From contig CAVYGB010000008.1 of assembly GCA_963767925.1 (NCBI GenBank), forward strand, positions 1,888,001 to 1,952,000: a DNA stretch of 64,000 bases, read 5' to 3'. Source of the stretch: an uncultured delta proteobacterium. GTDB taxonomy: Bacteria > Myxococcota_A > Polyangia > Fen-1088. Below, in pieces: positions 48,105 to 64,000 of this stretch. The translations under genes were made by a program, and so were the position numbers. The notes under the pieces are model-generated. The model saw nothing but the letters and a program-made list of their open reading frames with translations. It was not told the origin of the DNA and did not search any database. Numbering within the stretch: position 1 is the first letter of the stretch; every line of letters begins with the position of its first letter.

Positions 48105-48201
48105 CCCGGCCACCGGACGGTCGGCAGCGGGATGGCACGGCCAGAGCGGTCGCCCGAAACGGCGCGCGGGCATTGCCCCGGCGACGTGGTACACCGACGG
48201 C

Positions 48202-48990: not shown

Positions 48991-48997
48991 GCTCCGG

Positions 48998-49696
48998 ATG
49001 ACCCGTCCGGCCCACCACGAACACCATCGTTCCGGCAGGGTCGGCTGGCTGCGGGCCGCCGTGCTCGGCGCCAACGACGGGACCGTCTCCACCGCCGCCC
49101 TCCTCGTCGGCGTCGCCGCCAGCGGCGCCGAGCCCGGCATGGTGCTCACCAGCGGCATCGCCGGCGCGGTGGCCGGTGCCATGTCGATGGCCGCCGGAGA
49201 ATACGTGTCCGTGAAGTCGCAGGCCGACGCGGAGCGAGCCGACCTCGCCATCGAGCGGCGCGAGCTCGCCGAGAGCGCCGACCTGGAGCTGCAGGAGCTG
49301 GCGGCCATCTACCGGCGTCGTGGGCTGTCACAGGAGCTCGCCCAGCGGGTCGCCGAGGAGCTCACGGCGAAAAATGCCCTCGACGCCCACGCCCGGGACG
49401 AGCTGGGCATCACGGAGTCCCGGGCGGCCCGCCCGATCCAGGCAGCCCTGGCGTCGGCGACGTCCTTCGCCGTGGGTTCCCTCCTTCCCCTGGCCGGCGC
49501 GCTGCTGGCCCCGCAGGCCTTGCTGAGAGCGACCGTCATCCTCCTCACGCTGGTCAGCCTCCTCATCACCGGGGGCCTGGCCGCCCGCACCGGAGGCGCT
49601 CCCATCCTCCGCGGCGCCATCCGCCTCGCCTTCTGGGGCTCCCTGGCGATGCTGGCCACCAACCTCGTCGGCCGCCTCTTCAACGCCCCGATCTAG
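48998..49696 (+). CDS. VIT1/CCC1 family Fe/Mn transporter
   Basis: LRAAVLGANDG, SMAAGEYVSV, HARDELG. Confidence 0.93.
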   Translation: MTRPAHHEHHRSGRVGWLRAAVLGANDGTVSTAALLVGVAASGAEPGMVLTSGIAGAVAGAMSMAAGEYVSVKSQADAERADLAIERRELAESADLELQELAAIYRRRGLSQELAQRVAEELTAKNALDAHARDELGITESRAARPIQAALASATSFAVGSLLPLAGALLAPQALLRATVILLTLVSLLITGGLAARTGGAPILRGAIRLAFWGSLAMLATNLVGRLFNAPI

Positions 49697-50000
49697 TGCA
49701 CCGGCTTCGAATCAGCGTCGAAGACGGCGCACGAGCACCTGCGCTGTCGCCAGGGCCGCGGCGCATTGTGAAGGAGCGGAGAGCCGCCTGCTCGAACCGC
49801 TTCGGCCGAGACTTCGCCTCCGAGAGGGCGGTTTTCTTCGAGCAATCCAGGCAAGTATCGCGCCGACGCGTCGCCCTGGGATCCGCGTTCTGGACCGTTG
49901 AGGCTGCCGGCGCCGGTTATCGGAGCCGAAATCGGCGCTCGCCGCTGTACGATTTGTCGTGCCCCGAGGGTCGCGACCGCTCAGGGTTGGCCCCGTGAAC

Positions 50001-50282
50001 ATGGAACCAGGCATCGGTGGGACAGAGTTCATCGACGACCAGAAGCGCTCCCGGGGCATGGCCAGCCTCGTGACCAAGCGCAGCCGTGCTCAGTCGGATC
50101 TGACGGTCATCGATGTGGTGGGCGCCGACGCGCGGCTGACCGCCTTTCTGTCCCAGCTCGTCCGGAGCAGCCTCGTGGTCCAGGAACCAGATGGCGGCAG
50201 CACCCTGTTCAGCTTCCAGTGGGCGTCGGGCTTCGTGAACGGGCCCGACATCCGCATCCAGGGCCTCCTCGAGCGAACCTGA
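50001..50282 (+). CDS. Small hypothetical protein
   Basis: High-GC3 ORF; start uncertain. Confidence 0.4.
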   Translation: MEPGIGGTEFIDDQKRSRGMASLVTKRSRAQSDLTVIDVVGADARLTAFLSQLVRSSLVVQEPDGGSTLFSFQWASGFVNGPDIRIQGLLERT

Positions 50283-50474
50283 TTCACGGGCCGCCGGGCG
50301 CACGACAAGCGAGCTGCTCGCCCCTTGCGCCGGAGTTGGCCGCTGCTGGCTGGACGCTTCGGACGTCCAAGCGCGAAGCTGGCCTTCTCGCCTTCGCCGC
50401 CCACGGTTGGGTAGGTCTTGGCTGGCGTGCGACAGATAACCGGTGACGGAGACCGGGTCAGCCTCACTAACTGA

Positions 50475-51443
50475 GTGATGATCACACGACCGTTGACCGG
50501 GAAGGGCCGCGCCGCGTACGCCTGCATCGTTCTGCTCTGTGGGGCCACGGCGGTCGGTTGCGGGATGGATTCAGACAACGCCGCAGAGGGGCCGCCGCCG
50601 GCCGCAAGCGCCCCCGGCGCGCCCGCGCCCACTGAAGGCGGAGGACGGCCGCCCGCCCCGGAGACAGGGGCCGGTGGTGCGGTCGTGCCGCCTCCCGCAC
50701 CGTCGCCTGCGCCCAGCCCGCCCACGCCGCCCGAGCCCGCGCCTCCAGGGATGGCGCCGCCCAATCCGACCACCCCGCCAACCGGGATCGATCCAGGCAC
50801 GCCGCCGGCGCCGCCCGCCGTCGCCCCGCCACTGACCGGCGCTGCGCCCTACGGCTGCACCGGGTGCACGCGGCTGTTCAACGGCGTGGATCTCGAGGGG
50901 TGGGAGACGGCCCCCGGCGCCTGGGTGGTCCAGAACGGTGTCCTGGCCAGCACCGGCAAGGTGCCCGGCGAGCTCTACACGAAGGAAGATCTCGGCAGCT
51001 ACCGCATCTTCTTCCAGGTTCGCCACGTCAAGGCGATGGGCGGCAAGGACCATCAATCTTGCACCACCCTGTTCGGCAAGCGGCCGGCTGACCCAGCGAG
51101 CGCCCGGTCCGGGATCAGCGGGGCGCAATTTCAGCCCCCCAGCGGCTACTCCTGGGACTACGGCGCCGGCGGCAGCTTCAAGGGGGCTTCGCCCCGTCCG
51201 AAGTTCGACAACAAGCAGTGGCACCAGTGCGAAGTGCTGGTGAAGGAGGCGGGCTCATTCCGCGCGGCCTGCTGCACGATGGGAGAGACGGCCTGCAAGA
51301 CCGTCGAGGTCCTGAGCTGGACGGGCACCGGCCGCAAGCACCCCTTCAACATCCAGATGCACAACGGCGGCCTGTTCGACGAGTACAAGGAGCTCTGGAT
51401 CGAACGCGATCCGACCGTCGACGACCTGCTCTCGAACAAGTAA
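50475..51443 (+). CDS. DUF1080 (3-keto-disaccharide hydrolase-like) lipoprotein with Pro-rich linker
   Basis: AVGC lipobox, LFNG-x-DL-x-GW, W-x-V-x-NG, QMH...YKELWI. Confidence 0.75.
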   Translation: MMITRPLTGKGRAAYACIVLLCGATAVGCGMDSDNAAEGPPPAASAPGAPAPTEGGGRPPAPETGAGGAVVPPPAPSPAPSPPTPPEPAPPGMAPPNPTTPPTGIDPGTPPAPPAVAPPLTGAAPYGCTGCTRLFNGVDLEGWETAPGAWVVQNGVLASTGKVPGELYTKEDLGSYRIFFQVRHVKAMGGKDHQSCTTLFGKRPADPASARSGISGAQFQPPSGYSWDYGAGGSFKGASPRPKFDNKQWHQCEVLVKEAGSFRAACCTMGETACKTVEVLSWTGTGRKHPFNIQMHNGGLFDEYKELWIERDPTVDDLLSNK

Positions 51444-51491
51444 CTGCGGCGGTGGACGGACCACCCTGACCCCGCCTACGCTCCGGCGGGC

Positions 51492-52196
51492 ATGCCCGAA
51501 TCGTTGACCCTGGCCCCGACGCCGTCCCCCCGCACCTTCCGCGCTCCCGACGGATCCCTGCTGACGCCGCCCGCCGACTGGGCCTGTCTTCCCCCCGGGG
51601 ACGCCGGGCTCACCCGGCGGGTGAAGGCGGCCGGGCCGTCCTGGGTCGTGGTGGAGAAGCGCGGACGCAAGATCTTCTCACAGGGTCTCTGGGCCCCGGC
51701 GGTCAACATCGCACAGGCGCGCGCGATCCTGGTCGCCGAACGCGCGACAGACAGCTACGCCAGGCGCCGCGAACAGGACCTGCGCCGGCGTGAAACCCAG
51801 CAGTCCGCCTACGTGGAGCGCTTCGAATCCGAGGTGCTCGCCTTCCTCGACTTCTCCCCCCGCTGGCGCAGCCTGGCCGCCAGCCTGGCCGCGCAGGTCA
51901 CCGCCCTGGCCACGCCCGTGGGCAGCGGCACGGTCGCCCGGACCACACGGATCCCCGTCGACCAGCGGGCCGAAGCCGCCTTGGTGGCCTGGATGCGCCA
52001 CCAGACCACCCTCTACGACCGCCTGAAGATCCCGCGCATCAAAGGCATGCGCCGCCAGGTGCGCCGCGAGCTGGCCTCGATCTCGCGCGTCGTCCTGGAT
52101 CGCCACCGCCTCGACGATGGCCACGACGCCGCCCCCGCCGGCCCCTGCCCCCTCTGCGCGGCCCTGGCCCCGGGAACCCCGGCCCCGGAGCGCTGA
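51492..52196 (+). CDS. DUF2293 domain protein
   Basis: LPPGDAGLTRRVK, PVGSGTVART, AWMRHQTT-x-YD. Confidence 0.8.
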   Translation: MPESLTLAPTPSPRTFRAPDGSLLTPPADWACLPPGDAGLTRRVKAAGPSWVVVEKRGRKIFSQGLWAPAVNIAQARAILVAERATDSYARRREQDLRRRETQQSAYVERFESEVLAFLDFSPRWRSLAASLAAQVTALATPVGSGTVARTTRIPVDQRAEAALVAWMRHQTTLYDRLKIPRIKGMRRQVRRELASISRVVLDRHRLDDGHDAAPAGPCPLCAALAPGTPAPER

Positions 52197-52254
52197 GGTT
52201 CCGGACCTCCTCCGCGCCCGGCCCGCCCTCCGCCAGCGATCGAAATGAGCGGCC

Positions 52255-52908
52255 TCAGCCTTTGTTCGCCCGGACGAACTTCAGGTGCGTGACCCTGGGC
52301 GCGGCCACCGTGCGCACCAGCTCCAGCCCATGCAGATCGCCGCCCAGCCCCGCGAACAGGCGCTCGCCTCCTCCCAGCAGAATGGGCACCAGATTGATCT
52401 CCATCTCGTCGACAAGGCCAGCCGCCAGGTACTGGTTCGCGACGCTGGCGCCGCCCGCCAGCGCGACATCTTTGCCCCCGGCCGCGCGGCGTGCCTGCTC
52501 CAGCACGGACTGGATGCCCTCGCTGACGAAGTGAAAGGTCGTGTCCCCTTCGCAGGTCAGGGGTGCCCGCGCGTGGTGGGTGATCACGAACACCGGGTGG
52601 TGAAACGGCGGGCTGGCTCCCCACCAGCCCGTCCAGGGTTGCTTCACGTCCCAGCCGCCAGGATGCCCGCCGAACATGTTGCGCCCCATGATCGTCGCCC
52701 CGATGTTGGCCGACGACTCGTCGACCACCCCGCTGCTCTCGTTGGTCTCGCCCCCCTCCAGGCCGTGCACGCTGCGCCACTGTTTCAACGGGACCACCCA
52801 CTCGTGCAGGCCTTCGCCCCCCTTCCCCAGCGGATCTTTCACGCTCTGTTCGGGCCCCGCGACAAACCCATCGAGCGACATCGAGATTCGAAACCGCAGC
52901 CTGGACAT
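52255..52908 (-). CDS. Dihydrofolate reductase/RibD C-terminal family protein
   Basis: SMSLDGFVAGP, IMGRNMF, GGA-x-VA-x-QYL-x-AGLVDE, LLGGGERLF. Confidence 0.9.
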   Translation of the reverse strand: MSRLRFRISMSLDGFVAGPEQSVKDPLGKGGEGLHEWVVPLKQWRSVHGLEGGETNESSGVVDESSANIGATIMGRNMFGGHPGGWDVKQPWTGWWGASPPFHHPVFVITHHARAPLTCEGDTTFHFVSEGIQSVLEQARRAAGGKDVALAGGASVANQYLAAGLVDEMEINLVPILLGGGERLFAGLGGDLHGLELVRTVAAPRVTHLKFVRANKG

Positions 52909-52999
52909 GGTCAGCCTCCCTGGCGCCGAAGTGTCTTCCGGCGCTCCTGACCAGGCGACGATCCAACCCGTCCCGGATCGACATGCCAGCGAGGTTTTT

Positions 53000-53348
53000 C
53001 AGACCTCGTGCGCGCCCGGCCCCCCGCTTGGCCGCCGCTCACCGCCTTCCGGAGCTCGAGCGCGCCCTCCTGGGAACGGTCGAGCGCGCGCGGCCCGGGA
53101 GAAGCTTGCCGCCCTGCGGGAGGCCCTCGGGAAGGACCGCGAGGCGTTCGCCAGGTCTTCCAGGCATCTTCTCCGGCGAGCTGCGCCTTGCCCCCACCGC
53201 AGCGGGCGACCGTAAGCGCTCGGCGATGGCCGGGAGCGCACGGCTCGACCAGCTCACCAATTCGAGTGACCCCACCGGGTCTTTTGAGTTGGTGAACCCG
53301 GTGATGCCGGTGGCGGTGGTGGCGCCACGACGGCGGATGGCGGTGTAG
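53000..53348 (+). pseudogene. C-terminal remnant of a large serine recombinase, with a tRNA-like att core
   Basis: Frameshifted coiled-coil ...ELERALLGTVER...REKLAALREAL...IFSGELRLAPT...SDPTG; GTGACCCCACCGGG at 53266-53279. Confidence 0.5.
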
Positions 53349-53490
53349 TACGGCGGTTGAATGCCTGAGGCAGGGGTCCGTGCGGCGATTGCCGAGCATG
53401 GTGGCCGCGTCTTCCGGGGCACCGAGCGCAGTGTGCCAAACGTAAGGCCCGGAACCGGACACCGGGCCGACAGACGGGTATCGTGTTCAC

Positions 53491-53709
53491 ATGGCGGTCG
53501 TTCTGAACTGGGACGGGAAGGAGGTTCCCGAGGAGTTGCGCACGCTCCCCAAGGGGCGCTACGTCATCGCACCGGTGGACGCCGTACCTGCGCTCACGGC
53601 CGATGAGGAGCAGGGATTGGAGGAGGCGCTCGACGCCCTGGACCGCGGCGAGGGCGTGGACCTCGACCAGGTCCGATCTGAACTCGACGAGCTCGTGCGG
53701 CGCCGTTGA
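53491..53709 (+). CDS. Putative antitoxin
   Basis: Small acidic protein (LTADEEQGLEEAL...RGEGV) overlapping the toxin start. Confidence 0.7.
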   Translation: MAVVLNWDGKEVPEELRTLPKGRYVIAPVDAVPALTADEEQGLEEALDALDRGEGVDLDQVRSELDELVRRR

Positions 53710-53992
53710 GGTTCACGCTCGCCCCCCAGGCGCGGCAGGACCTCCACTCGGCCGTCTCGTACTTGCTGGACAGGAATCCGGCTGCCGCCGTCGCCCTCAA
53801 GGACCAGTTGATCGGGACCATCGAGCAACTCGCCCGCGGCGACTTCGACGGTCCGGAGGTGCAGCTCCGGTCCGGCGGTGGGTCCGGAGTTGGCCGGTCC
53901 CACCGTACCGGATCTATTACCAGCGCACCGCCGACGTGCTGAGGGTCGTCCGCGTCTACCATCAAGCGCGCCGGCCAATCGTCCGGAGGTAG
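53706..53992 (+). CDS. RelE/ParE family toxin (frameshift near 53875)
   Basis: A-x-QDL...Y...NP-x-AA; PPYRIYY...VVRVYHQAR. Confidence 0.8.
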
Positions 53993-53997
53993 CCCGG

Positions 53998-54955
53998 TCA
54001 ACCACGTCGGCGGCTACCTTCGCCACCGCCGCTTCGACCTGTCGGACCAGGTCGCCCGGGCCGACCTGCGCCCCGGATCATGTCCGAGAAGGAGCGGCAG
54101 ACGAACCGGGGGTAATGCCTCTTCGTTACCAGCGGCGAGGAGTGGTTTACCGCCGCAGAGACCTCATCGAGGGGGACACCGGCTTCCAGGTTGTGACTGA
54201 TGAACGAGTGCCGGGTCGCCTCGTAGAAGGTCATGTCGGGCACCTCGCAGACAATCCGGGCGGCCTCCCAGCAACTCTGCACGAACTCCCTCCGGCCCCT
54301 GCCAGCTTGACGCACGCGGACGGTCACCCGGCTTTGTCGGCGTGAAGACCAGGTCCTCGCGCCCCGCCCCTTCCGCCCTCCGGCGCTGCAGCCATGGGCC
54401 GATCACCTTCTTCGTGTCCACGTGTGCGGGCACCATCTTGGCCTTGCTGTGGCCCCGCCAGTCTTCCTTCAGAGGTCCGATTCCGTCCTCCGCGGCACTC
54501 CCCCGCACCACGATGAGTCCCTCATCCACGAACGCGAAGTCGTGCATGCGCAGCGCCCGTGTCTCGGATGGTCGCAGTCCTGACCGGTTGCCGAGCCAGA
54601 AGACGTAGTTGACCGGCTCCGGCAGCGCGGTGAACAGCTTCTGGAATGTCTTCTCGTCCCGAATCCACGGCCGGTCCCTGTCCGGCGCCGGATGCGGTCG
54701 GCGCCCCGGGGGCACCGACCGGCAGGGATTCACCTCGGCGTGCCCCATCCCGATGGCCCAACTCCAGAATCGGGAAAGCAAGTTGAAGGCGTGCCGCTGT
54801 GACTGGCCACTACCTCCACTGCCCTTCAGGACTTGTAGCCATCTCATGACTGCGGCTACCGTCTGGCCGTCGCCCAGCGTGACGTCCCTCCAGACGGGGA
54901 CCACGTGCGCCTCGGCGCGCTTCCGGTCGTTCTTCGCGTTCCGGTTGGACATGCT
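53998..54955 (-). pseudogene. Tyrosine recombinase/integrase, N-terminus removed at the IS boundary, frameshift near 54297
   Basis: NPC, SGLRPSE, YEATRHSF, VNHSS-x-x-VTKRHY. Confidence 0.82.
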
Positions 54956-55068
54956 TGTCGACGGCAGCCTGAATCCGCATCGATCTGACGGTCGAGGTCG
55001 GACCGGCAGGAAAGTCGCGGAGACAGTGCCCGCGGTGTAGACGCACGCGCGCGGGAGCGGAAAGAGGT

Positions 55069-55098
55069 GGGGGACCGGGTCTTGCCACCCGGTCCCCC
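55069..55098 (+). other. Perfect 12-bp hairpin in the element 1 leader
   Basis: GGGGGACCGGGT-CTTGCC-ACCCGGTCCCCC. Confidence 0.8.
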
Positions 55099-55173
55099 GT
55101 GCGCGGATGGACGCGCGCTGGGAAGATCGCCCAGCTCGCGCCCGCCGTCCAGTTCCTCCGCTGCCGCGGGCGG

Positions 55174-55845
55174 ATGGACGAGCTCGAGTTCCTGGACCTG
55201 CGATGCGCGTGGTGCCTGCGGACCTTTCAGGTCTGCGTCCCCTGTTTCCGCGGGCAGCGGTATTGCACTGAGGACTGCCGCAAGCACGGCGACCTGCGAG
55301 CCCGGCGAGCGGCGAATGCCCGGCACCAATGTTCGGCTGAAGGCCGCGAGGATCACCGGGACCGCATGCGGGACCTGCGCGCTCGGCGGCGATGCCGCGT
55401 GACGGATACGGGTATCGAGAAATTTGCGTTCCTGGCTCCCTTGGTGCCGCCGGGTGCTCCGGCCTCCGCCATGCCGGCGGGATCCGCGGGCGACGGCCAA
55501 GGAGAGTCCGACGAGCCGATACACCGTGATGCTGTCGACGAGCATGAGCCGGACGCGCCTGCTCTTGCTGGATGGCCAGGACGAGCTGATGAGGGCGGTC
55601 CTGCCGCCCGGGCACCTGCTCCGTCAGCGCAGGGCAGCCAAGAGCCTGCTCGAGGGGATCTCGCTGTGGCTGGACGCCCAGGTCTCCGTTGTGCTGTCTG
55701 CGGACGAGGCGGAGGCCTCGTACTACCTGGACCTCGTCGACGAGCTCGGCACGCCAACCCGAAGCGTGTACTTCGACGTGCGGCTGGTCGACAAGGCCGG
55801 GCGCCGCCGGCCGCGACGTCTGCGCGGCGTGTGCGATTTCACTGA
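55174..55845 (+). CDS. IS-associated Cys-rich (Zn-finger-like) protein
   Basis: CAWC...CVPCFRGQRYC-x-x-x-CR; distal RCAVCGR; homologous to 61806-62261. Confidence 0.7.
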   Translation: MDELEFLDLRCAWCLRTFQVCVPCFRGQRYCTEDCRKHGDLRARRAANARHQCSAEGREDHRDRMRDLRARRRCRVTDTGIEKFAFLAPLVPPGAPASAMPAGSAGDGQGESDEPIHRDAVDEHEPDAPALAGWPGRADEGGPAARAPAPSAQGSQEPARGDLAVAGRPGLRCAVCGRGGGLVLPGPRRRARHANPKRVLRRAAGRQGRAPPAATSARRVRFH

Positions 55846-55888
55846 CCTGCGCCAACTGTCGCTCCTGGCCGACGGTGGTGCCCGATGA
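55511..55888 (+). CDS. IS-associated hypothetical protein (in-frame ACG at 55511 after RBS, or ATG 55529)
   Basis: AAGGAGAG RBS; stop overlaps the istA start (ATGA). Confidence 0.65.
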   Translation, partial: TSRYTVMLSTSMSRTRLLLLDGQDELMRAVLPPGHLLRQRRAAKSLLEGISLWLDAQVSVVLSADEAEASYYLDLVDELGTPTRSVYFDVRLVDKAGRRRPRRLRGVCDFTDLRQLSLLADGGAR

Positions 55889-57363
55889 CACTCGACCCCG
55901 AGCGTGAAGCCGAGATTCGCCGGCTCCATTACGCCGAGCATTGGCCGGTCGGCACGGTGGCGTCACAGCTGGGCGTGCACCCAGAGGCGGTCAAGCGCGT
56001 GCTGGGCCTGCTCGAGGCGCGCGCACCAGGCCCGCCACGACCGCGCATCGTCGATCCCTTCCGGTCCTTCGTGGAGCAGACCTTGTCCAAGTACCCCCGT
56101 CTGCGCTCGACGCGCCTGCACGACATGCTCGTCGCCCGGGGCTTCAAAGGCAGCGTCCGCACCCTGCGAGACTTCGTCGCCGGTGTGCGGCCCCGGCCAG
56201 CGCGAGAGGCGTACCTCCGCACCGACCCGCTCATCGGCGAGCAGGCCCAGGTGGACTGGGCGCACGTGGGGGATGTCGATGTCCGTGGTGGACGCCGCAC
56301 GCTCTGGCTCTTCGTCATGGTCCTCTCCTGGTCGCGCGCGCTCTGGGGCGAATTCGTCTTCGACCTCACCGTCTACTCCCTGCTTCGCTCGATGCTCCGC
56401 GCAGCCATCCACTTCGGTGGCAACTGCCGGCAGTGGCTCTTCGACAATCCCAAGACCGTCGTCCTCGGTCGGGTCGGCGAGGCCGTCCGCTTCCACCCGC
56501 TGCTGCTCGACTTCGCCGGCAAGATGTACGTCCAACCGCGCGCCTGCGCGGTCCGCAAGGCCAACCAGAAAGGTCGCGTCGAGAGGGCGATCCGTTTCAG
56601 CCGTGACCGCTTCCTCGCCGGTCGCGAAATCACGAGCATCGAGCAGGGCAACCGCGAATTCGCCGATTTCATGGCCGGCATCGCCCTCGATCGGCCCCAT
56701 CCCACCATCCCCAACCGCACCGTGCGCGATTGCTTCGAGGAGGAGAGGCACCGGCTGCTCGCACTTCCGCCGGCCCTGCCCGAGACCGACCTGGTCACGC
56801 CTGCGCGCGTGGACAAGACCGCGTTCATCCGCTTCGACGTCAACTCCTACTCCGTCCCCCCGCGCCACGTCCTCGAGACGCTCACCATCGCCGCAGACGA
56901 TCGCTGGCTCCGCGTCCTCGATGCCTTCGGCGCGACCGTCGCCAGGCACGCTCGCTGCTGGGGCCGGCGCCAGACCATCGAGCTGCCCGAACATCGTGAG
57001 GCCATTCTCGAGCAGAAGCGCGGCGCCCGCGAGCACAGGGGCCGCGACCGCCTGCGCGCCGCGGTCCCCGCGATCGACCGCCTCTTCGACCGTTGGCTGG
57101 AGATGGGCTGCAACGTCGGCAGCATGACGTCCCGAACCCTCGTCCTCCTGGACCTGTACGGCCGTGACCTATTCGCCGCTGCCGTGACCGACGTCCCGGC
57201 CCGCGGCACCTGGGACGTCGGCGCAATTTCGCAATTGTGCGAGCTGAGGCGCGTGGCCGCCACCCGCCCCGTGCCCGTCCCCGTTGCGCTCGGAGCCCAT
57301 GTGCCAGAGCGAGACGTGATCCCCCACGCCCTGGAGGGCTACGATGCCATTCGACGTCGTTGA
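55885..57363 (+). CDS. istA: IS21 family transposase
   Basis: GEQAQVDW, LFDNPK, KGRVER DDE triad; N-terminal HTH. Confidence 0.95.
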   Translation: MTLDPEREAEIRRLHYAEHWPVGTVASQLGVHPEAVKRVLGLLEARAPGPPRPRIVDPFRSFVEQTLSKYPRLRSTRLHDMLVARGFKGSVRTLRDFVAGVRPRPAREAYLRTDPLIGEQAQVDWAHVGDVDVRGGRRTLWLFVMVLSWSRALWGEFVFDLTVYSLLRSMLRAAIHFGGNCRQWLFDNPKTVVLGRVGEAVRFHPLLLDFAGKMYVQPRACAVRKANQKGRVERAIRFSRDRFLAGREITSIEQGNREFADFMAGIALDRPHPTIPNRTVRDCFEEERHRLLALPPALPETDLVTPARVDKTAFIRFDVNSYSVPPRHVLETLTIAADDRWLRVLDAFGATVARHARCWGRRQTIELPEHREAILEQKRGAREHRGRDRLRAAVPAIDRLFDRWLEMGCNVGSMTSRTLVLLDLYGRDLFAAAVTDVPARGTWDVGAISQLCELRRVAATRPVPVPVALGAHVPERDVIPHALEGYDAIRRR

Positions 57364-57959
57364 AGCTCTCCGCGACCTCGGATTCCGCTGCCCGACGGCC
57401 AGCATCACGGCCATGCTCGAGGAGGCCACCAAAGCCAAGCTTTCCCCGATCCAGGTCTGTGAGCGTCTCGCCAAGCTCGAGCGTCGCGAGCGCGACGCGC
57501 GTAATCTCGCCCGCCGCACACGCGCCGCCACCCTCGGTCCATTCGCCGCGCTCGACACCTTCGATTGGAATCACCCCGCAGCATCGACCGCGCGCTCTAC
57601 GAGCACCTGCTCGGCCTCGACTTCGTCGAAGCCGGTGAGAACGTCCTGCTCCGTGGCCAGAGCGGCGTCGGCAAGACCACGCTTGCCCAGAACCTCGCGC
57701 TTGCGGCGCTCAACGCCGGCCACCGCGTCCGCTTCTGCACCTTGGCCTCGGCCCTCACCGACCTGCTCAAGCAGGAGTCCTTGCCTGCCCTCGACCGCCG
57801 CCTGCGGCGCTACGTCCAACCCACCGTCCTCGTCCTCGACGAGCTTGGCTACTTGCCCTGCGACTCGCGATCGGCTGACCTGCTTTACACAATCCTCAGC
57901 CGCAGGCACCTCGTCCGGCCGACCGTGATCACGACGAACCTGGCCTTCAAGGAATGGGG
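57344..57959 (+). pseudogene. istB: IS21 helper ATPase IstB, frameshift near 57578, cut by element 2
   Basis: FDWNHP, GQSGVGKT, LDELGY, ITTNL-x-F-x-EWG, then an abrupt IR. Confidence 0.88.
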
Positions 57960-58274
57960 TGCTGGTGGCAGTGAAATCCTCCCCCGGCACGGCGGCCGAA
58001 ATCGCCTCGGGTGACGGAGAGGCGGATCGCGCGGTGACGCCGATTTCGGGCCCGACAGGGAATCGCTTTGGGTGCCCGGCGCGACCTGATTGGGCCGGAA
58101 GTTGCCTGGTAGGTCCGTGGCGAGGCGAAAGCCTGTAGTGGGGCCGCGAGGGCGCCAGGGCGATCTCAAGGGGGGCACGCGGATGGCGGAGGGTCGGCCG
58201 GGGAGGCGTGCCCCCCCTCCCGGGGCGCGGCTCGAGGCGGATCCCGAGACAGACGGCGCCCGCTCGGCGGTCGA

Positions 58275-58505
58275 TCAGAAGAGCGAGTCGTCCGGATCGT
58301 ACGACGGGGGATCGCTGTTCGAGGCGGGATCCTCAGCGACGTCGGGATCGGGCTCGGGCTGGAGGATCGCCTCGCGGTAGACCTGCCACAGCTCACCCTG
58401 GAGCTGCTCGAGGCAGTCGATGAGCGCCCCGGCCTCGCGCGGGCCGAGCGCGGGCAGCACGAGGGTGACGATGCGTGGTGGAGGCGCGGCTGGACGACTG
58501 CTCAC
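58275..58505 (-). CDS. Small IS-associated protein with acidic tail ending DPDDSLF
   Basis: GTG start overlaps the istB stop; helical core then acidic tail. Confidence 0.6.
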   Translation of the reverse strand: MSSRPAAPPPRIVTLVLPALGPREAGALIDCLEQLQGELWQVYREAILQPEPDPDVAEDPASNSDPPSYDPDDSLF

Positions 58506-59345
58506 GATCGCTCCGGGCGCTTCCGGTCGGCGTCTCGGTGGCCGCGATGGCCGGAGGGACGTCGACCTCGCTTCGGCGGCAGTGGGCCGGGGGACGAGTC
58601 TCGATCGACGCGGAAGCTCTTGGCGTCTTTGGGGAAGGTGAAGATGTGCGCGCCCTCGATGAGGCGGTCGAGGGCGGGTGTGACCTGGGAGGGACTGCCG
58701 AGCGCCTGTGGCCACTCCTCGAAGCCGAGGTTGGTGGCGAGGATGATCGAATCCGCGACGGTATCGGCGGGCGACGAGCTCGAAGAAGACGCCGGCGAAG
58801 TCGTGCTCGCGCTTGCGGGGACTGTTTCCTAGCTCGTCCACAATCAATAGATCCGGCTTGCACATCTCGTCGAGGATCTGGTCGAGCGTGTCGTCGGCGA
58901 GCGAGGCGTAGAGGCGGGTCAACAGCTCGTAGGCGCGGCAGAAGCGCACGCGGTAGCCAGCCTGACACGCGCGCACACCGAGGCTCACCGCCAGATGGGT
59001 CTTGCCCACGCCGCTCGGGCCGATCCACAGAACGGCCTGACGGCGGTCGACAAAGCCCAGCTCGGCGAGGTCGAGCACCTGCTTGCGGTCGAGGCTCGGC
59101 TGCTTCTTGAAATCGTAGTCTTCCAGCCGACAAATCTCGGGGAAGTCGGCCTGGCTGATCCGTTTTTGTGTGCCCGTCTCCTTGCGTGCCAACACCTCCG
59201 CCTCGGCGATGCGTGCAATGAACGCGAGGTGCCCGAGCTTGAGCGCGGCGGCCTGTCGAATGTGCTCGTCCAGATTCTGGGCGGCGTGGCGCAGCCCGAT
59301 CCTGCGCAGGTGCTCGTACAGGCGATCCATTTCTTCGCTAGCCAT
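58502..59345 (-). CDS. istB: IS21 helper ATPase IstB (frameshift near 58751)
   Basis: YDFKKQP, GPSGVGKTHLA, IVDELG; SIILATN...EEW...LDRL in another frame. Confidence 0.9.
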
Positions 59346-60915
59346 GCGCTCCTCCGTCTTCGTCGTCGGGATCCCCGCGCCGCTTGGGCGGCGGGGGCTC
59401 GGTGGATGGATGGCTCGCACGATCGCGGGCCAATCGCTCGTACGCGGCCAGGCTCCGCTGGAAAGATCCCGCGCCCTTGAGGAAGTCAGCCACGTGAGCG
59501 GGCACCGGGTCCGACGCTGGTACAACCGGACCGGGCGCTCCGGGCGGGCGCGGCGGATGACGGCCGGTCACGATCCGCGCGACCGCATTGTGATCGAAGG
59601 CGCCGTAGCGGGTCGCATGGCGCAAGGCCTCGGCCACGCGGATGACGCCGACTCTGTCGGCGAGCTGCAAGATTTTGCTCATGTGGTAGCCGGCCGCGCC
59701 CCCGCGCGCCTCGCGCAGGCCGGCGGCGAAATCCTCCGCGCCGCTGCCGAGCCGCAAGAATTGCTGGGCCAGCACGTGCCGGCTCGTGCTCCGCTGCCGA
59801 AACTCCGCCTCGTGCTCGGGCAAGATGACCCGCGGTCCGTCGGTACCGATGGCGTGCTCGGCGACGATCTGGCCATCGACATGCACCTCCATTCGCCCCT
59901 CGAGCACGTGCAGCCACGCGTCTTTGCCGGTCAGGCGCGGCGGCACCGAATAGCGGACGCTCTGCCAGGCGACACAGAAATCGTCGCCGACGAGCCGCGG
60001 GACCACCTCTGCCGCGACGAAGGCCTTGGGCGGCAAAGGCACCAGCTGCGGCCGCTCCTCGGCGAGAAGATGCGCGGGCTGCTGCCCCGTCGTACGGTGG
60101 TCGCGCACGTTTGCCCGGGCCAACCAGGCCACTGCCTGGTCGTTGAGATCGCCGAGATCGCGAAAGCGACGGCCCGCCAAGAAATTCTCCTCGGTGAAGC
60201 GAAAGGGCTCCTCCACCTTGCCCTTGCCCTCCTTGTACCCGGGGGCCAGCGGCACCGCCGTGAAGCCGTAGTGCTGCACCATCTTCTCGAACAGCGGGTG
60301 ATAGAGCACGCCGTCGCGGTAGCTCTCGAGCACGACTTGCTTCATCCGGTCGTAGAGGATCTCGTGCGGTACCCCGCCCGCTGCCTCGAAGGCCAGCACG
60401 TGACTGTGGCAGACGCTGTGCACTTCCGCCGACAGCGTGAAGCGCATGAACCGCCACCGGCTGAATCCCAGAACGAGAGAGAAGCACACGACCTTGGTGG
60501 GCACCTCGCCGAAGAGCACTGTGTATGGAGAGAGATCTACCTGTCCTTGCACGCCAGGCCCGGTCTCGAAGCGCAGGTGCGGACGTCGCCGGGTCTTGGG
60601 CCGAAAGCCGCGGATGTGCTTCTTGAGGATCGTGTAGCCGCCCTTGTACCCGACGGCCTCGATCTCCTCGTACACGCGGACCGCCGTCAGCTCCTGGTCG
60701 AGCACGAGCGACCGGATGAGCGGCCGGAATGGATCGAGCATCGACGGCCGTGGCTTCCTTTGCCGCACCTTTCGTCGCACCACCGCGCGCACCGTCTTCG
60801 GATCCACACCGAGCTCGCGCGCGATCGCGCGGATCGACTGACCCTCTGTCTTTAGCCGCTCGATGAGGACGTTGCGGCGGTCGCGTCGCTCGCGCCGGCG
60901 CTTGGTCGTTTCAAC
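59338..60915 (-). CDS. istA: IS21 family transposase (start codon unclear)
   Basis: SIRAIARELGV-x-x-KTVR HTH, RFET-x-PG-x-QGQVD, LYDRMK, KGKVE. Confidence 0.92.
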   Translation of the reverse strand, partial: VETTKRRRERRDRRNVLIERLKTEGQSIRAIARELGVDPKTVRAVVRRKVRQRKPRPSMLDPFRPLIRSLVLDQELTAVRVYEEIEAVGYKGGYTILKKHIRGFRPKTRRRPHLRFETGPGVQGQVDLSPYTVLFGEVPTKVVCFSLVLGFSRWRFMRFTLSAEVHSVCHSHVLAFEAAGGVPHEILYDRMKQVVLESYRDGVLYHPLFEKMVQHYGFTAVPLAPGYKEGKGKVEEPFRFTEENFLAGRRFRDLGDLNDQAVAWLARANVRDHRTTGQQPAHLLAEERPQLVPLPPKAFVAAEVVPRLVGDDFCVAWQSVRYSVPPRLTGKDAWLHVLEGRMEVHVDGQIVAEHAIGTDGPRVILPEHEAEFRQRSTSRHVLAQQFLRLGSGAEDFAAGLREARGGAAGYHMSKILQLADRVGVIRVAEALRHATRYGAFDHNAVARIVTGRHPPRPPGAPGPVVPASDPVPAHVADFLKGAGSFQRSLAAYERLARDRASHPSTEPPPPKRRGDPDDEDGGAHG

Positions 60916-61787
60916 GCGGACCCAAGCGCGGTCAGAAGTGTCGAGACCGCCGCCTTCGTCTGCCCCAGATCCTTGGCCAGCAGCCGATGATCTGCCTCCG
61001 GCGGTGGTGGATCCAGAAGCCCTGCCGTCCGCGGCGCCACTCCCTGCAGCAGGCGCAGCAGGCGCACCAGCTTCTGGCTCTGCGACGACAGCCGCGGATC
61101 CTGCGGCGGCTGCGACAGCTCCGGGTGCGCCTTGCTCAGCGCCGCCCTCGGCTCGCGCAGTAGGTACCGCCGCGCCTCCGGATCCGTCGCTCGCTGCCAC
61201 AGGCTCACCAGGATCTCGGTGTCCCGTGGCCCGAGCCCCGCGCTCTGAGCCGCCGCCGCGACCTCGAGTTGGTTGCCCGCGGGCAACGGCAGAAGCCGCC
61301 GCGCCACTCCCGGGTGCATCACCCCCACCTTGATCCCCTCCACCAACTCCGGGTGCAGCCGCTCCACCAGCCCGATCCGCCGCGACACCCAGCTCTTGTG
61401 TCGCTGTAGCATCTGGGCGATCTGAACCTGCGTCAGCCCCGTCGCCGCCAGCTCCCGCAGCACCAACGCCTCCTCCAGCTCTGTCATCGAGTGCGGGCCG
61501 CGATTGAGCGCCAGCATCGTCACCCACTGCCCCGCCTCGTCGAGCGGCATCACCCGCACCATCAGCGTCGGCCACCCAAGCGCCGTCGCCGCCTCCCTCC
61601 GCTTGAAGCCGTCCACCAACTCCAGCTTCCCCTCGCGGTCCACCGCCACCATCGGTTGCAGCTGCCCCTGCGCCGACAAGCTCTGCCGCATCCGCTCGAC
61701 CAGCGCTGGCCGCTGGCAACGCGCACGCCCGAGCGTCGTCCCCAGCATCGCGATCGGGCGCTGCTCGGCCGGGCTCGGCGCTACCAT
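60852..61787 (-). CDS. ParB/Srx-like N-terminal domain protein with HTH
   Basis: GQLQP, LVDGFKR, LTQVQIAQMLQRHKSWVSRR HTH. Confidence 0.85.
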   Translation of the reverse strand: MVAPSPAEQRPIAMLGTTLGRARCQRPALVERMRQSLSAQGQLQPMVAVDREGKLELVDGFKRREAATALGWPTLMVRVMPLDEAGQWVTMLALNRGPHSMTELEEALVLRELAATGLTQVQIAQMLQRHKSWVSRRIGLVERLHPELVEGIKVGVMHPGVARRLLPLPAGNQLEVAAAAQSAGLGPRDTEILVSLWQRATDPEARRYLLREPRAALSKAHPELSQPPQDPRLSSQSQKLVRLLRLLQGVAPRTAGLLDPPPPEADHRLLAKDLGQTKAAVSTLLTALGSALKRPSAGASDATAATSSSSG

Positions 61788-61805
61788 TGTCTCGCTCTCC
61801 TCTCG

Positions 61806-62261
61806 TCATGGGGGGCAGTGATCGGACGGGGGCCATCGTCGCGGCGGTCTCTGCGCCCATCCCACCCGCCCGCACCGCATGCAATGCCCCCGTCGCGGCC
61901 ATGGAGCCACGTCGACAACCCGCGCGGCTACAGCCTGATCTATGTCGATCTTCGGGTCCGGTACCGCCGTGGCCGTGCTCGACGCCGGTGACGGCGCCGA
62001 GATGGCGGCCGCCGCGGGCAGCTCCGCCGCTGGGCGCCTCTGTCGCAAGCCGCTGCGGTAGGCCTCGCACGCTGCCGCTCGACGGAGTCGCCCCCCGGGT
62101 GTCGACATGTACTGGGCCTGCGCTCGCCGGCACTGCTCCCGACGTGCACGCTCCCGGCAGCCACCGCCGCAGTAGCGCTGTCCGCAATAGCAGCGGCGGC
62201 ACATGAAAAACGGCCGACCGCACTCCGGCCGGGCGCACTCGAGAACACGTAGAGGAGCCAC
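61806..62261 (-). CDS. IS-associated Cys-rich (Zn-finger-like) protein
   Basis: CARPEC...CRRCYCGQRYC-x-x-x-CR; C-terminal HCMRCGR. Confidence 0.7.
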   Translation of the reverse strand: MAPLRVLECARPECGRPFFMCRRCYCGQRYCGGGCRERARREQCRRAQAQYMSTPGGRLRRAAACEAYRSGLRQRRPAAELPAAAAISAPSPASSTATAVPDPKIDIDQAVAARVVDVAPWPRRGHCMRCGRVGWAQRPPRRWPPSDHCPP

Positions 62262-62343
62262 TCGTCCCTGCGACAGGCGCTGGACGAGACGCAGGGACTG
62301 TGCGAAATCGGACCTACCGGATCGCGTCCCTGCGTTTCGGCCC

Positions 62344-62374
62344 GAGGGCTCGGAGCTACCAACTCCGGGCCCTC
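62344..62374 (-). other. 12-bp hairpin in the element 2 leader
   Basis: Plus strand GAGGGCTCGGAG-CTACCAA-CTCCGGGCCCTC (one G-T pair). Confidence 0.75.
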
Positions 62375-62794
62375 ACCTTTTCGGTCACCTGCTCAGAGCC
62401 GATCTACCCCGACACGACGCTCCGTAGCCAGAAAGGCCGCCTGGCCGGCGTGGCCGTCAGCCGTCCCCCCCCGAGGGCCTTTTCACCGCCACGGTGGGGG
62501 AGAATTACGCCGCCACTCGCAATTGTTCGCCCACGACGGGCCGGGGCCGTGAACCAGAACCCTCTCCTCAAGCTGTCCAGTTACGTGGCAACCCGCCCCG
62601 CCGCGACACTCTGCCACGGCGACCAGCATAGGCCCTCACGCCCCTGCTCGATTATCAACCATCTTCGGCGCCCGGCTTGCTTGGAAGGTGCTCGCGGCCC
62701 ATCGTGTGTCGGTGTTCATGGCCACGAAAACCACCCCCCATCACGCCGCCCTTCGGGCCGGCGCTCTGGCGTCGTACCTCTCCGTGAGATCTGA

Positions 62795-63199
62795 ATGGAA
62801 GCATCTCGGACGCCCGTATCGGCCCCGGCTTCACCGCCACTGGTGCTGGTCGTCGACGATGACGCGGACATCCGGGAGGCACTGCGGGACGTGCTCGAAG
62901 CGGCTGGATACGCCGTCGCCGAGGCGGCCAACGGCCTGGAGGCATTCACTTATCTCGAGCGGAATCCAAGGCCGGGGGCGATCCTCCTCGATCTCTTCAT
63001 GCCGGTCATGGATGGGTGGCAACTCGCCAGACGAATCGAATCGGTTCCAGCGCTGGCCAGCGTTCCGCTGGTCGTGGTGACGGCCAGCGGGTCTCACTGG
63101 GGGTATCCCAGCAAACGCGTGCTGCTAAAGCCGATCGACCTGCCCCGCCTGTTGCAGGAGCTCCATGACCTGGCCCCGGTACCCGAAGCGGGCCGCTGA
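62795..63199 (+). CDS. Single-domain response regulator
   Basis: VVDDD, LLDLFMPVMDG, VTA, LKP. Confidence 0.9.
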   Translation: MEASRTPVSAPASPPLVLVVDDDADIREALRDVLEAAGYAVAEAANGLEAFTYLERNPRPGAILLDLFMPVMDGWQLARRIESVPALASVPLVVVTASGSHWGYPSKRVLLKPIDLPRLLQELHDLAPVPEAGR

Positions 63200-63285
63200 C
63201 GACTCGAATTGCCAATAGCACGAGGCGTATCCGCAGTCGTCCGATAGCAGCCCGTTTGCCTGGTGAGGTGCCGCCAGCCGGCCCG

Positions 63286-64000
63286 TCAGTATTCGGGAAG
63301 CTCGATCTCGTCGGTAAGCTGGCGACCGATCGCCAGGTCGGCCACCAAGGGGAGGTTGAGCAAGCGAGTCGTCTGGCGTTGCAGGAACAGGCGCAACCTC
63401 GAAGAGGGGGCAAAGAACCGGGCGAACCGCTCCGCGGCCTGCTGTTTTCGGGCGATGAACGCGCCCAGCCGCTCCTGATATCGATTGAACGCGCGTGTGT
63501 GGTCTCCGCCCGCAACCTTCAACTCCCCGGCCAGTACGTACGCGGAGACCATCGCGAGCGCGGCGCCCTGCCCGGCGAGCAGCGAGGGGCAAAAGGCCGC
63601 ATCACCCACCAGGCCGAGACGTCCTTTCGTCCAGCGCTCCATGCGGATCTGACTGACCCGATCGAAATAGAGATCCTGCACCGTCTCCATCGCGGCCAGG
63701 ATCTGGTCGCACTCCCAGCCTGCACCTGCGAACCGCCGGCGCAGCCTGGCCTTGGCCGCGGACACATCGTTCAGCTGTTCTCCGCCGGTCTCCTTCTGGG
63801 CGTACACGAACAGGAACATGGTCCTATCATCGCGAAGGCTGAACCGCGCCGCCTGGCCCCCAACTTGGTGATACATGACATAGACGTCGGGATCTCGCGG
63901 GCGGTAGTGCGCGATCTCGAAGGCAGCCACCTGGCAACCGAGGTATCTCTCGAATCGGTCCTCTCCGAAACCGAGCCGTCGGACGTTCGAATGCAGCCCG
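63286..64000 (-). CDS. FAD-dependent monooxygenase/oxidoreductase (partial, continues beyond the window)
   Basis: GLHS-x-VR at the window edge; LVGDAAFCPSLLAGQG. Confidence 0.88.
   Translation of the reverse strand, partial: GLHSNVRRLGFGEDRFERYLGCQVAAFEIAHYRPRDPDVYVMYHQVGGQAARFSLRDDRTMFLFVYAQKETGGEQLNDVSAAKARLRRRFAGAGWECDQILAAMETVQDLYFDRVSQIRMERWTKGRLGLVGDAAFCPSLLAGQGAALAMVSAYVLAGELKVAGGDHTRAFNRYQERLGAFIARKQQAAERFARFFAPSSRLRLFLQRQTTRLLNLPLVADLAIGRQLTDEIELPEY

What the first reader, a model, noticed from the sequence alone, without database searches (positions are those of the whole stretch)
54956..62628. Two divergent IS21-family elements share a multi-gene plan with a leading Zn-finger-like gene
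Seen: both elements place a homologous Cys-rich ORF first inside the end (C..C...F..C..C..GQRYC...CR...R.A......GR, plus a distal C-x-x-CGR), followed by an unrelated second gene (hypothetical versus ParB), then istA-istB. Established: canonical IS21 has only istA and istB. Inference: keeping the same gene at the same position in two elements with dissimilar transposases points to a core regulatory or targeting component rather than cargo, i.e. a distinct subgroup of complex IS21 transposons.
Basis: partly seen in the sequence, partly recalled or inferred. Interest (0 to 1): 0.72.

Follow-up and report, generated by a model that had tools for sequence, protein, structure and literature searches.

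The report
Zinc-ribbon first gene of IS21 clade
Two broken jumping genes of the IS21 type in this window both begin with a small zinc-binding protein gene that turns out to be a conserved, unnamed third component of a large and widespread branch of this otherwise two-gene transposon family.

Summary
Window 54956-57959 (+) is an IS21-family element (E1) cut off inside istB by a second one, E2 (57960-62521, -). Each starts, about 220-260 bp inside its left end, with a Cys-rich ORF, followed by ORF2 (E1) or a ParB-like gene (E2), then istA and istB. Both window copies are defective, with istB frameshifts; intact sister copies exist in the genome.

The Cys ORF belongs to a large unnamed family: 3493 representative clusters, no Pfam or NCBIfam model, and "hypothetical protein" as the only name. 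It has eight conserved metal-ligand positions, a basic helical hairpin, a free-evolving linker and a C-terminal CxxCGR knuckle.

- In 77 of 80 loci from other genomes it sits directly upstream of istA. The same holds in 24 of 29 loci from the window's own phylum.
- The exceptions are truncated or interrupted copies.
- It co-diverges with IstA (r = 0.92).
- Its N-domain is under purifying selection (dN/dS 0.18, against 0.14 for IstA).
- All Cys-bearing IstAs fall in one clade of the IstA tree.

So it is a core gene of a distinct IS21 subgroup, not cargo. Its function is untested. A nucleic-acid-binding regulator or cofactor of transposition is the most likely reading. I found no description in print.

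The parts
54956..57959 (+). E1: IS21-family element, truncated at its right side inside istB by the insertion of E2
   Evidence: A 98%-identical copy at C8:2077894-2074886 starts at the same base. In that copy and in a 66%-identical relative on C4, istB runs on past the 57959 junction. The intact copy has TG..CA inverted repeats and the duplication TATTGG.
54956..55005 (+). E1 left inverted repeat (about 50 bp, starts TGTCGACGGC...)
   Evidence: Aligns with the reverse complement of the right end of the intact copy.
55174..55845 (+). Cys1: leading zinc-ribbon gene of E1 (223 aa counted from the ATG)
   Evidence: Family HMM E = 6.8e-43. Eight ligand positions are conserved. 48% identical to the C4 copy over 214 aligned aa.
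55529..55888 (+). ORF2 of E1 (about 120 aa; start uncertain), in the +1 frame inside the Cys1 linker and C-terminus; its stop overlaps the istA start
   Evidence: 55% identical to the C4 copy and 32% to E3. The family has 65 clusters called as genes. The overlap is kept in at least 11 elements. Predicted RNase H-like topology.
55885..57363 (+). istA of E1 (492 aa)
   Evidence: NF033546 IS21 transposase 201.1 bits (cut-off 160). Pfam rve and Mu-transpos_C_2.
57344..57959 (+). istB of E1: frameshifted near 57575 and cut at 57959
   Evidence: PF01695 matches lie in two frames. The intact 98% copy reads through both places.
57960..62521 (-). E2: five-ORF IS21-family element (4562 bp) inserted in E1's istB
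   Evidence: Both ends are shared with partial copies (C8:884846, C2:496951, C13:119579). Imperfect TG..CA terminal repeats. No target duplication: the sequence after 62521 is not the rest of E1.
58275..58520 (-). Small ORF after istB of E2 (about 80 aa; start uncertain)
   Evidence: Open frame. Conserved only in the two other partial E2 copies. No Pfam, NCBIfam or PHROGs match.
58502..59345 (-). istB of E2, broken by a 1-nt insertion at 58750 (coordinates approximate at the 3' end)
   Evidence: PF01695 143.8 bits. The C8:883305-884846 copy lacks the extra base and has an intact 280-aa IstB.
59338..60921 (-). istA of E2 (start uncertain, probably a GTG overlapping the end of the ParB gene)
   Evidence: NF033546 253.8 bits. 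Pfam rve, Mu-transpos_C_2 and HTH_38.
60852..61787 (-). ParB-like gene of E2 (311 aa)
   Evidence: PF17762 HTH_ParB 35.3 bits (cut-off 22.6). ParB_N is only 17.6 bits, below its cut-off of 26.3. PHROG ParB-like families match. The same Cys-ParB-IstA order is seen in L112, L125 and L133.
61806..62261 (-). Cys2: leading zinc-ribbon gene of E2 (151 aa)
   Evidence: Family HMM E = 4.7e-30. AlphaFold2 model has mean pLDDT 82.3.
62476..62521 (-). E2 left inverted repeat with two GTGGCGG(C/T)G(T/A)AA sub-repeats
   Evidence: Read from the sequence.

Best explanation
The Cys-rich ORF is a real gene. It encodes a basic protein of about 140-225 aa, made of:
- an N-terminal domain with six metal ligands (C-x2-4-C, C-x2-C/D/H, YC-x3-C) followed by an arginine-rich helical hairpin;
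- a linker that evolves almost freely;
- a C-terminal CxxCGR knuckle that most likely completes a second zinc site.

It is the first gene inside the left end of a large clade of IS21-family insertion sequences. It lies within a few bases of istA, or of an intervening ORF2 or ParB gene, and is inherited together with IstA. This makes it an element-encoded core factor of a distinct IS21 subgroup. E1 and E2 are two diverged, now defective members of that subgroup.

Shown here: the gene is real, it is linked to IS21, it co-diverges with IstA, it is under selection, and it is restricted to one IstA clade.

Inferred, about 40% likely: the protein binds nucleic acid, probably the element's own ends or the istA leader, and so regulates or assists transposition. 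This would resemble the small zinc-finger protein InsA of IS1, which is also encoded first inside its element's left end.
For: Family size and annotation:
- Profile search: 3493 representative clusters at E <= 1e-3 and 1853 at E <= 1e-10.
- No Pfam or NCBIfam family and no name in any source.

Metal-ligand positions in 126 sequences:
- C9 126, C14 125, C21 126, C31 126, C35 125 plus 1 H, C127 121, C130 123.
- Position 24 is C in 113, D in 7 and H in 6, so it is replaced only by other metal ligands.

Structure:
- AlphaFold2 mean pLDDT 82.3.
- N-terminal strands, two helices (33-52, 55-75), a disordered stretch at 76-120, and a confident C-terminal hairpin.
- The hairpin carries a net charge of +0.22 per residue.

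Linkage to IS21:
- istA lies directly downstream in 77 of 80 loci and in 24 of 29 loci.
- The median gap between the Cys stop and the IstA start is -1 nt over 55 elements.
- The gene lies inside bona fide 3.3-kb elements with 45-bp inverted repeats and 5-7-bp duplications.

Evolution:
- Cys versus IstA pairwise distances: r = 0.92, with 0 of 2000 permutations as high, over 70 elements.
- dN/dS medians: Cys N-domain 0.18, IstA 0.14, IstB 0.10, linker 0.88, C-terminus 0.32.
- IstA tree of 48 rows: all 33 Cys-bearing rows sit in one 39-row clade (SH-aLRT 96). E1 and the compact relatives form an all-Cys clade of 29 rows (support 99).
- The 6 'Cys-less' rows inside the 39-row clade carry a 4-Cys leading ORF.
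Against: - No functional, binding or expression data exist.
- Fold searches gave only generic zinc-ribbon or helix matches: Foldseek best E = 1.8, VIA best Z = 3.3.
- The loci examined are the best-scoring ones from two searches, not a random sample of the 3493 clusters.
- Distance and dN/dS pairs are not independent.
- The tree used the 'quick' method, and the group holding E2, E3 and E4 is poorly resolved.
- Homology between the 4-Cys and 8-Cys forms is weak (hhalign probability 39.6%, E = 3e-4, 39 columns).
- Both window copies are dead, so nothing can be said about activity at this locus.
Confidence: 0.78

Rival explanations
1. The protein is a third subunit of the transposition machine. 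It would contact IstB or IstA to choose or capture targets, as TniQ/TnsD does for the related TnsB/TnsC pair in Tn7-like elements.
For: [quoted passage not shown]
- The gene is tightly coupled with istA, co-diverges with IstA and is kept throughout a clade.
- Several copies sit in or next to other mobile-element genes: E2 in E1's istB; E1 next to an integrase start codon; L045 at the start of another istA; P0131 inside another istA.
Against: - Target duplications of 12 elements share no sequence, so there is no fixed attachment site.
- No sequence match to TniQ in Pfam.
- No structural match to anything.
- Nesting in other mobile DNA is also what selection against harmful insertions produces.
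- No interaction test could be run.
Confidence: 0.2
2. The gene is cargo. It would benefit the element or its host in a way unrelated to transposition, for example anti-defence or a host regulator, and merely rides in IS21 elements.
For: - Other extra genes differ between lineages: ORF2, ParB and a tail ORF. This shows that these elements do pick up genes.
- The function is unknown.
Against: - Cargo is normally patchy and exchangeable. Here the gene is present in all 29 rows of the E1/compact clade.
- Its position is fixed, and it diverges in step with IstA.
- It is never seen as a free-standing cellular gene in the 118 places examined.
Confidence: 0.1
3. The ORF is a chance open frame of a 70% G+C genome, and the shared Cys pattern is coincidence.
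For: - High G+C gives many long spurious ORFs.
- In E1 the distal motif lies in a frame that overlaps ORF2.
Against: - 3493 clusters.
- dN/dS of 0.18.
- Conserved ligand positions.
- A confident fold.
- The same protein occurs without any overlap in E2 and in the compact elements.
Confidence: 0.01

Closest known systems
Canonical IS21-family insertion sequences (IS21, IS5376): istA + istB
   Same: - IstA passes NCBIfam NF033546 and IstB matches PF01695.
- Terminal inverted repeats are TG..CA with sub-repeats.
- Target duplications are 5-7 bp.
   Different: - These elements have three to five genes instead of two.
- They are 3.2-4.6 kb long; the roughly 2-2.6 kb of canonical members is recalled.
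- A zinc-ribbon gene always comes first.
- Lineages differ in further genes: ORF2, ParB, tail ORF.
IS1 InsA (small zinc-finger DNA-binding inhibitor encoded first inside the left end of IS1) - recalled, functional analogy only
   Same: A small basic protein with a Cys4-type zinc motif, encoded as the first gene just inside the left end and upstream of the transposase frame.
   Different: - No detectable sequence or fold relationship.
- InsA is joined to the transposase by frameshifting; here the genes are separate.
- Binding to the element's ends was not tested.
TniQ/TnsD target selectors of Tn7-like and Tn5053-type transposons
   Same: A third, zinc-binding protein encoded beside a DDE transposase and an AAA+ regulator that are related to IstA and IstB (PMC10293859, passage read).
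   Different: - No Pfam TniQ match.
- Much smaller.
- No fixed target site.
ParB-plus-zinc-ribbon IS21 elements noted earlier in this scan (e1-363402, e1-2259158)
   Same: E2 and E4 have the same plan: zinc-ribbon gene, ParB-like gene, istA, istB and a trailing ORF, about 4.6 kb in all.
   Different: - Those notes concern other genomes and are unchecked AI notes.
- Here the zinc-ribbon gene is shown to extend to ParB-less three- and four-gene elements and to mark a whole IstA clade.

Membership tests
IS21 family insertion sequence | IstA DDE transposase of the IS21 type | tested here: met
   NF033546 scores 201.1 bits (E1) and 253.8 bits (E2) against a cut-off of 160.
IS21 family insertion sequence | IstB AAA+ helper gene immediately downstream of istA | tested here: met
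   PF01695 matches in both elements. Both window copies are frameshifted, and E1 is also truncated; intact versions exist in sister copies.
IS21 family insertion sequence | Terminal inverted repeats ending 5'-TG...CA-3' with internal sub-repeats | tested here: met
   E1 via its intact copy; E2; compact relatives.
IS21 family insertion sequence | Short target-site duplication (4-8 bp) | tested here: met
   TATTGG at the intact E1 copy, and 12 of 23 compact relatives have 5-7 bp duplications. The window copies themselves show none: E1 is truncated and E2's right flank is not E1.
IS21 family insertion sequence | Two-gene organisation (istA, istB only) | tested here: not met
   E1 has four ORFs and E2 has five. 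This is the point of difference that defines the subgroup.
TniQ/TnsD target selector | Match to the Pfam TniQ domain | tested here: not met
   No TniQ hit for Cys1 or Cys2, or for 44 family members at E <= 0.1.
TniQ/TnsD target selector | Structural likeness to solved TniQ/TnsD | tested here: inconclusive
   No match of any kind above noise.
ParB/Spo0J family (second gene of E2) | ParB HTH domain and ParB N-terminal domain | tested here: inconclusive
   HTH_ParB scores 35.3 bits, above its cut-off of 22.6. ParB_N scores 17.6 bits, below its cut-off of 26.3. Several PHROG ParB-like families match, best E = 4.8e-13.
IS1 InsA-like end-binding inhibitor | Binds the element's inverted repeats and represses transposase expression | not testable with these tools
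   Analogy from gene position, size, zinc motif and basic charge only.

The most novel reading that the evidence does not exclude
In this clade the IS21 machine has three parts, not two. The zinc-ribbon protein would be an obligatory subunit that loads or directs IstA/IstB, as a regulator of assembly or a target-capture factor comparable to TniQ. If so, the textbook two-protein model of IS21 transposition is only the reduced form. In addition, in the E1/E3 lineage a second gene (ORF2, RNase H-like fold) has been written in another frame across the linker of this protein, giving a conserved 317-nt dual-coding stretch inside a transposon.
Probability: 0.25. Interest if true: 0.78.

Novelty: new variant of a known kind. 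Interest (0 to 1): 0.64.

Why it matters
IS21 is a structural and mechanistic model for transposases that work with an AAA+ partner, as do Mu, Tn7 and CRISPR-associated transposons. It is treated as a two-protein system with no known third factor (PMC10293859, passage read).

A conserved, selected, unnamed zinc-binding protein heads a whole clade of IS21 elements. These elements are common in soil Acidobacteriota and in the window's own phylum, and also turn up in MAGs assigned to five other phyla. Finding this protein:
- gives a concrete candidate for a missing regulator or selector;
- gives annotators a marker for this subgroup, whose first gene is now labelled 'hypothetical';
- supplies a compact 3.3-kb, apparently active element to test it with.

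Tried and rejected
- Complex prediction (IstA + IstB + Cys protein, alignments A6, A7, A5) was not available. No interaction evidence either way.
- Foldseek against PDB and VIA wide on the Cys2 model gave no meaningful match.
- tblastn of one family member (P0011) against 72,556 plasmids gave no match.
- Rfam (53500-63500) and tRNA (48000-64000) scans found nothing.
- The sequencing-run search listed no RNA holder.
- A k-mer search for repeated site arrays in E1 and E2 found nothing beyond the terminal sub-repeats.
- Test of whether ORF2 equals the tail ORF of compact elements: hhalign probability 0.1%. Rejected.
- Natural Cys-IstA fusions as evidence of interaction: the 'longer' search gave 6 proteins, of which I read three. 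P0233 is a deletion derivative lacking the IstA N-terminus. P0236 is a frameshifted read-through. P0131 is an insertion into another istA. Rejected as evidence.
- A fixed target site was rejected because the duplications are heterogeneous.
- The first dN/dS script timed out and was redone on the stored alignments.
- Paracoccus mobilome paper (PMC3281130, passages read): its 'additional ORFs' in IS21 mean istB, so it is not relevant.
Full report
**Anatomy of the window**

The region is about 70% G+C.

E1:
- BLAST against the window's own genome shows that 54956-57959 is a repeat. It has a 98%-identical copy at C8:2077894-2074886 and a 66%-identical relative on contig C4.
- In both of those, istB continues past the point that corresponds to 57959. 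E1 is therefore cut inside istB.
- The intact copy is about 3.2 kb. It has ~50-bp imperfect inverted repeats that begin TG and end CA, and a 6-bp duplication TATTGG. It lies just upstream of a gene whose product I read, by eye only, as terminase-like.

E2:
- From 57960 a different repeat starts. It is shared with C8:884846-883305 and C2:496951-497726.
- The other end, 62521, is shared with C13:119579.
- The two ends are imperfect inverted repeats. E2 is thus 57960-62521, on the minus strand, inserted into E1's istB.
- The sequence beyond 62521 is not the rest of E1, so a rearrangement followed the insertion and there is no target duplication.

Damage to the window copies:
- E1's istB has a frameshift near 57575 in addition to the truncation.
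- E2's istB has one extra base at 58750 relative to the C8:883k copy, which encodes an intact 280-aa IstB.

Both IstA proteins pass NCBIfam's IS21 model, with 201.1 and 253.8 bits against a cut-off of 160. They are only about 28% identical to each other.

Gene orders:

| Element | Gene order |
|---|---|
| E1 | IRL, Cys1 (55174-55845), ORF2 (about 55529-55888, +1 frame, overlapping Cys1 by 317 nt), istA, istB |
| E2 | IRL, Cys2 (62261-61806), ParB-like (61787-60852), istA, istB, small ORF (58520-58275), IRR |

**The Cys ORF is a real and large family**

- Cys1 and Cys2 align at 34% identity over 58 aa (E = 1e-5).
- A profile of seven sequences found 3493 representative clusters at E <= 1e-3 among 1.84 billion, and 1853 at E <= 1e-10.
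- The consensus is LRQ..C....C...F..C..CDRGQRYCS..CR..ARR.Q.R.ANRRHQ.S.EGRLDHRDRQRAYR.R....VTD.GS, then a variable linker, then RC..CGR.G.
- The eight ligand positions are almost invariant in 126 sequences. Position 24 is replaced only by Asp or His.
- Neither Pfam, NCBIfam nor PHROGs has a model for it.
- Of 44 members scanned against Pfam, 14 gave weak hits to the Cys-rich Rhodanese_C (best E = 5.5e-4) and none gave a convincing family.
- Cluster members are unnamed or called 'hypothetical protein'. The 30 nearest ESM-Atlas clusters are all 'hypothetical protein' with no common Pfam family.
- AlphaFold2 on Cys2 with 126 sequences gives mean pLDDT 82.3. The model has two N-terminal strands, a helical hairpin (33-52, 55-75), a disordered stretch at 76-120 and a confident C-terminal hairpin at 124-137.
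- No solved structure resembles it beyond generic zinc ribbons or helices.

**Linkage to IS21**

Other genomes:
- A scan of 185,579 species' genomes found 561 relatives. The best 80 loci are mostly Acidobacteriota MAGs, with single MAGs of Xanthobacteraceae, Sphingosinicella, Dyella, Opitutaceae, Planctomycetota and Acidimicrobiia and two of Rhizomicrobium.
- In 77 of the 80, an IstA about 42% identical to E1's starts within a few bases downstream on the same strand. In 66 of the 80, IstB follows.
- The three exceptions are not free-standing genes. L075 has a serine-recombinase element inserted after the Cys ORF. L102 has an insertion inside istA. L086 is truncated.
- Multi-copy sets define clean 3.3-kb elements with 45-bp inverted repeats (TGTCATCGATCATCTGAA...). 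The Cys ORF starts about 256 bp inside them.
- 12 of 23 such elements have perfect 5-7-bp duplications of unrelated sequence.

The window's own genome:
- The family HMM finds nine ORFs: E1 three times, E3 twice on C10, E2 twice, and E4 twice at E about 1e-6.
- Eight precede an istA or an istA fragment. The ninth (C13) is a truncated E2 copy.

The window's own phylum:
- 38 of 301 genomes, G000 included, have the family.
- Of 29 loci from other genomes, 24 have istA downstream and 3 are at contig ends. The other 2 (L123, L132) are cut by other elements.

**Core gene rather than cargo**

- Pairwise distances of the Cys N-domain and of IstA over 70 non-identical elements correlate at r = 0.92, with 0 of 2000 permutations as high. 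The elements are related, so this shows co-inheritance and is not an independent-sample statistic.
- dN/dS (Nei-Gojobori, 363 non-independent pairs among 49 compact elements):

| Region | Median dN/dS |
|---|---|
| IstA | 0.14 |
| IstB | 0.10 |
| Cys N-domain | 0.18 |
| Cys linker | 0.88 |
| Cys C-terminus | 0.32 |

- A scan for IS21 IstA in 101 genomes of the phylum found it in 35, at 70 places outside G000. The 8-Cys HMM hits upstream of 9 of those 70, although many places lacked enough upstream sequence.
- I built an IstA tree of 48 rows. It holds 21 of the 70 places; 49 were dropped for partial IstA or less than 1.5 kb of upstream sequence, as listed. It also holds 25 Cys-linked rows (4 from the window's own genome, 21 from other genomes) and 2 Cys-less IstAs from the own genome.
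- In that tree all 33 Cys-bearing rows fall in one 39-row clade (SH-aLRT 96). E1 and the compact elements form an all-Cys clade of 29 rows (support 99).
- The tree needs 4 label changes at minimum (2 forced by starred branches), against a mean of 12.9 in shuffles.
- E2, E3 and E4 lie in a poorly resolved neighbouring group with six 'Cys-less' rows. On inspection those six carry a leading 4-Cys ORF (CxxC..F.P....RQ..CS...C plus a basic helix). Five of the six follow it with a ParB-like gene, as E4 does.
- The relation of this 4-Cys form to the 8-Cys family is only weakly supported: hhalign probability 39.6%, E = 3e-4. The 8-Cys HMM does hit E4's ORF at 1e-6.
- The nine outgroup IstA rows have no 8-Cys HMM hit. 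I looked at the upstream region by eye in three of them (L173, L168, L192) and saw no such ORF. L170, L213 and the two own-genome rows were not inspected by eye.

**Other genes in the plan**

ORF2:
- It is a real family of 65 clusters, called as genes by others and named 'hypothetical'.
- Its predicted topology is RNase H-like (pLDDT 80). Foldseek hits to uS11, PPX/GppA and RuvC are weak, at E = 4e-4 to 3e-3.
- It has no conserved acidic residue.
- It lies in the +1 frame across the linker and C-terminal knuckle of the Cys ORF. In the 13 segments examined the Cys frame stays open to the distal CxxC motif. This points to genuine dual coding.

Other lineages:
- The Cys-ParB-IstA order of E2 recurs in L112, L125 and L133.
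- Compact relatives have instead a conserved ~131-aa fourth gene after istB. Its last codons and stop are encoded by the right inverted repeat. It is unrelated to ORF2 and has no Pfam family.

**Mechanism**

Nothing was tested functionally. Several features point to a nucleic-acid-binding factor expressed together with the transposase:
- the gene's position first inside the left end;
- its tight coupling to istA (median gap -1 nt);
- the two predicted zinc sites;
- the strongly basic helical hairpin (+0.22 charge per residue; pI 10.1-10.5).

I favour regulation of, or assistance to, transposition at the element's own ends, at about 40%. This is the role recalled for IS1 InsA. A TniQ-like subunit acting through IstB is the main rival, at about 20%. 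Heterogeneous duplications argue against a fixed target site.

**Literature**

- Four full-text searches found no description of a Cys-rich or zinc-finger gene in IS21.
- In PMC3281130 I read passages only; they are not relevant.
- ISfinder and TnPedia are not in the library, so prior curation there cannot be excluded.
- Earlier unchecked notes of this scan (e1-363402, e1-2259158) describe ParB-plus-zinc-ribbon IS21 elements in other genomes. My E2 and E4 data agree with them. The present work adds that the zinc-ribbon gene is the common denominator of a wider clade that includes ParB-less elements.

**Verdict**

The function remains open.

Noticed in passing
window 55529-55845 (+): A 317-nt stretch codes in two frames. 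ORF2 (RNase H-like fold, no conserved acidic residues) lies in the +1 frame over the linker and C-terminal CxxCGR knuckle of the Cys ORF. The arrangement is kept in at least 11 diverged elements (E1, C4, E3, L108, L114, L116, L118, L119-L121, L123, L124).
   Followed up: partly
L045:9673-10065 and about 60 other loci of L024-L103: The compact 3.3-kb relatives carry a conserved fourth gene after istB (about 131 aa, no Pfam family). Its last codons (FSDDR) and TGA stop are encoded by the right inverted repeat. It is unrelated to ORF2.
   Followed up: partly
window 53998-54954 (-): A tyrosine-integrase gene split by a frameshift (only a sub-threshold Pfam Phage_integrase hit, 19.0 bits against a cut-off of 27.1, E = 0.0013, in the 53998-54327 piece; otherwise read by eye). 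A 76%-identical paralogue lies about 12 kb downstream of it, beyond the window's end (C8:1955096-1955983). E1's left end starts 1-2 nt from its start codon.
   Followed up: no
window 53491-53942 (+): Two small overlapping ORFs (72 and 78 aa) just upstream of the integrase look, by eye only, like an antitoxin and ParE/RelE-type toxin pair. No tool was run on them.
   Followed up: no
L019:2161-4338 (G000:C4): The 66%-identical E1 relative on contig C4 has about 1.4 kb of extra DNA between the end of istA and the conserved part of istB. The long ORF in it reads, by eye only, like an ISL3-type transposase. No family search was run on it.
   Followed up: no
L075:7460-9819; L102:1256-2932: In two relatives the Cys ORF is followed by an inserted recombinase unit instead of istA. 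L075 has a serine recombinase plus a ParB-like gene. L102 has an HTH protein plus a tyrosine recombinase inside istA.
   Followed up: no
G000:C2:496744-497726: A 115-bp fragment resembling E1's left region (77% identity) lies 93 bp from a copy of E2's right end. This is another nested or rearranged junction between the two element types.
   Followed up: no
L105:1396-3435: In one relative the Cys ORF and istA are in the same frame, separated by a single stop codon. The ORF directly upstream reads, by eye only, like a group II intron reverse transcriptase.
   Followed up: no
L167:1783-2355, L190:252-755, L200:2796-3311, L206:2798-3250, L220:123-560, L224:2682-3107, L017:1251-1706: A shorter 4-Cys leading ORF (CxxC..F.P....RQ..CS...C plus a basic helix) heads the IS21 elements nearest to E2 and E4, usually followed by ParB. 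It is possibly a reduced or ancestral form of the 8-Cys protein (hhalign probability 39.6%).
   Followed up: partly
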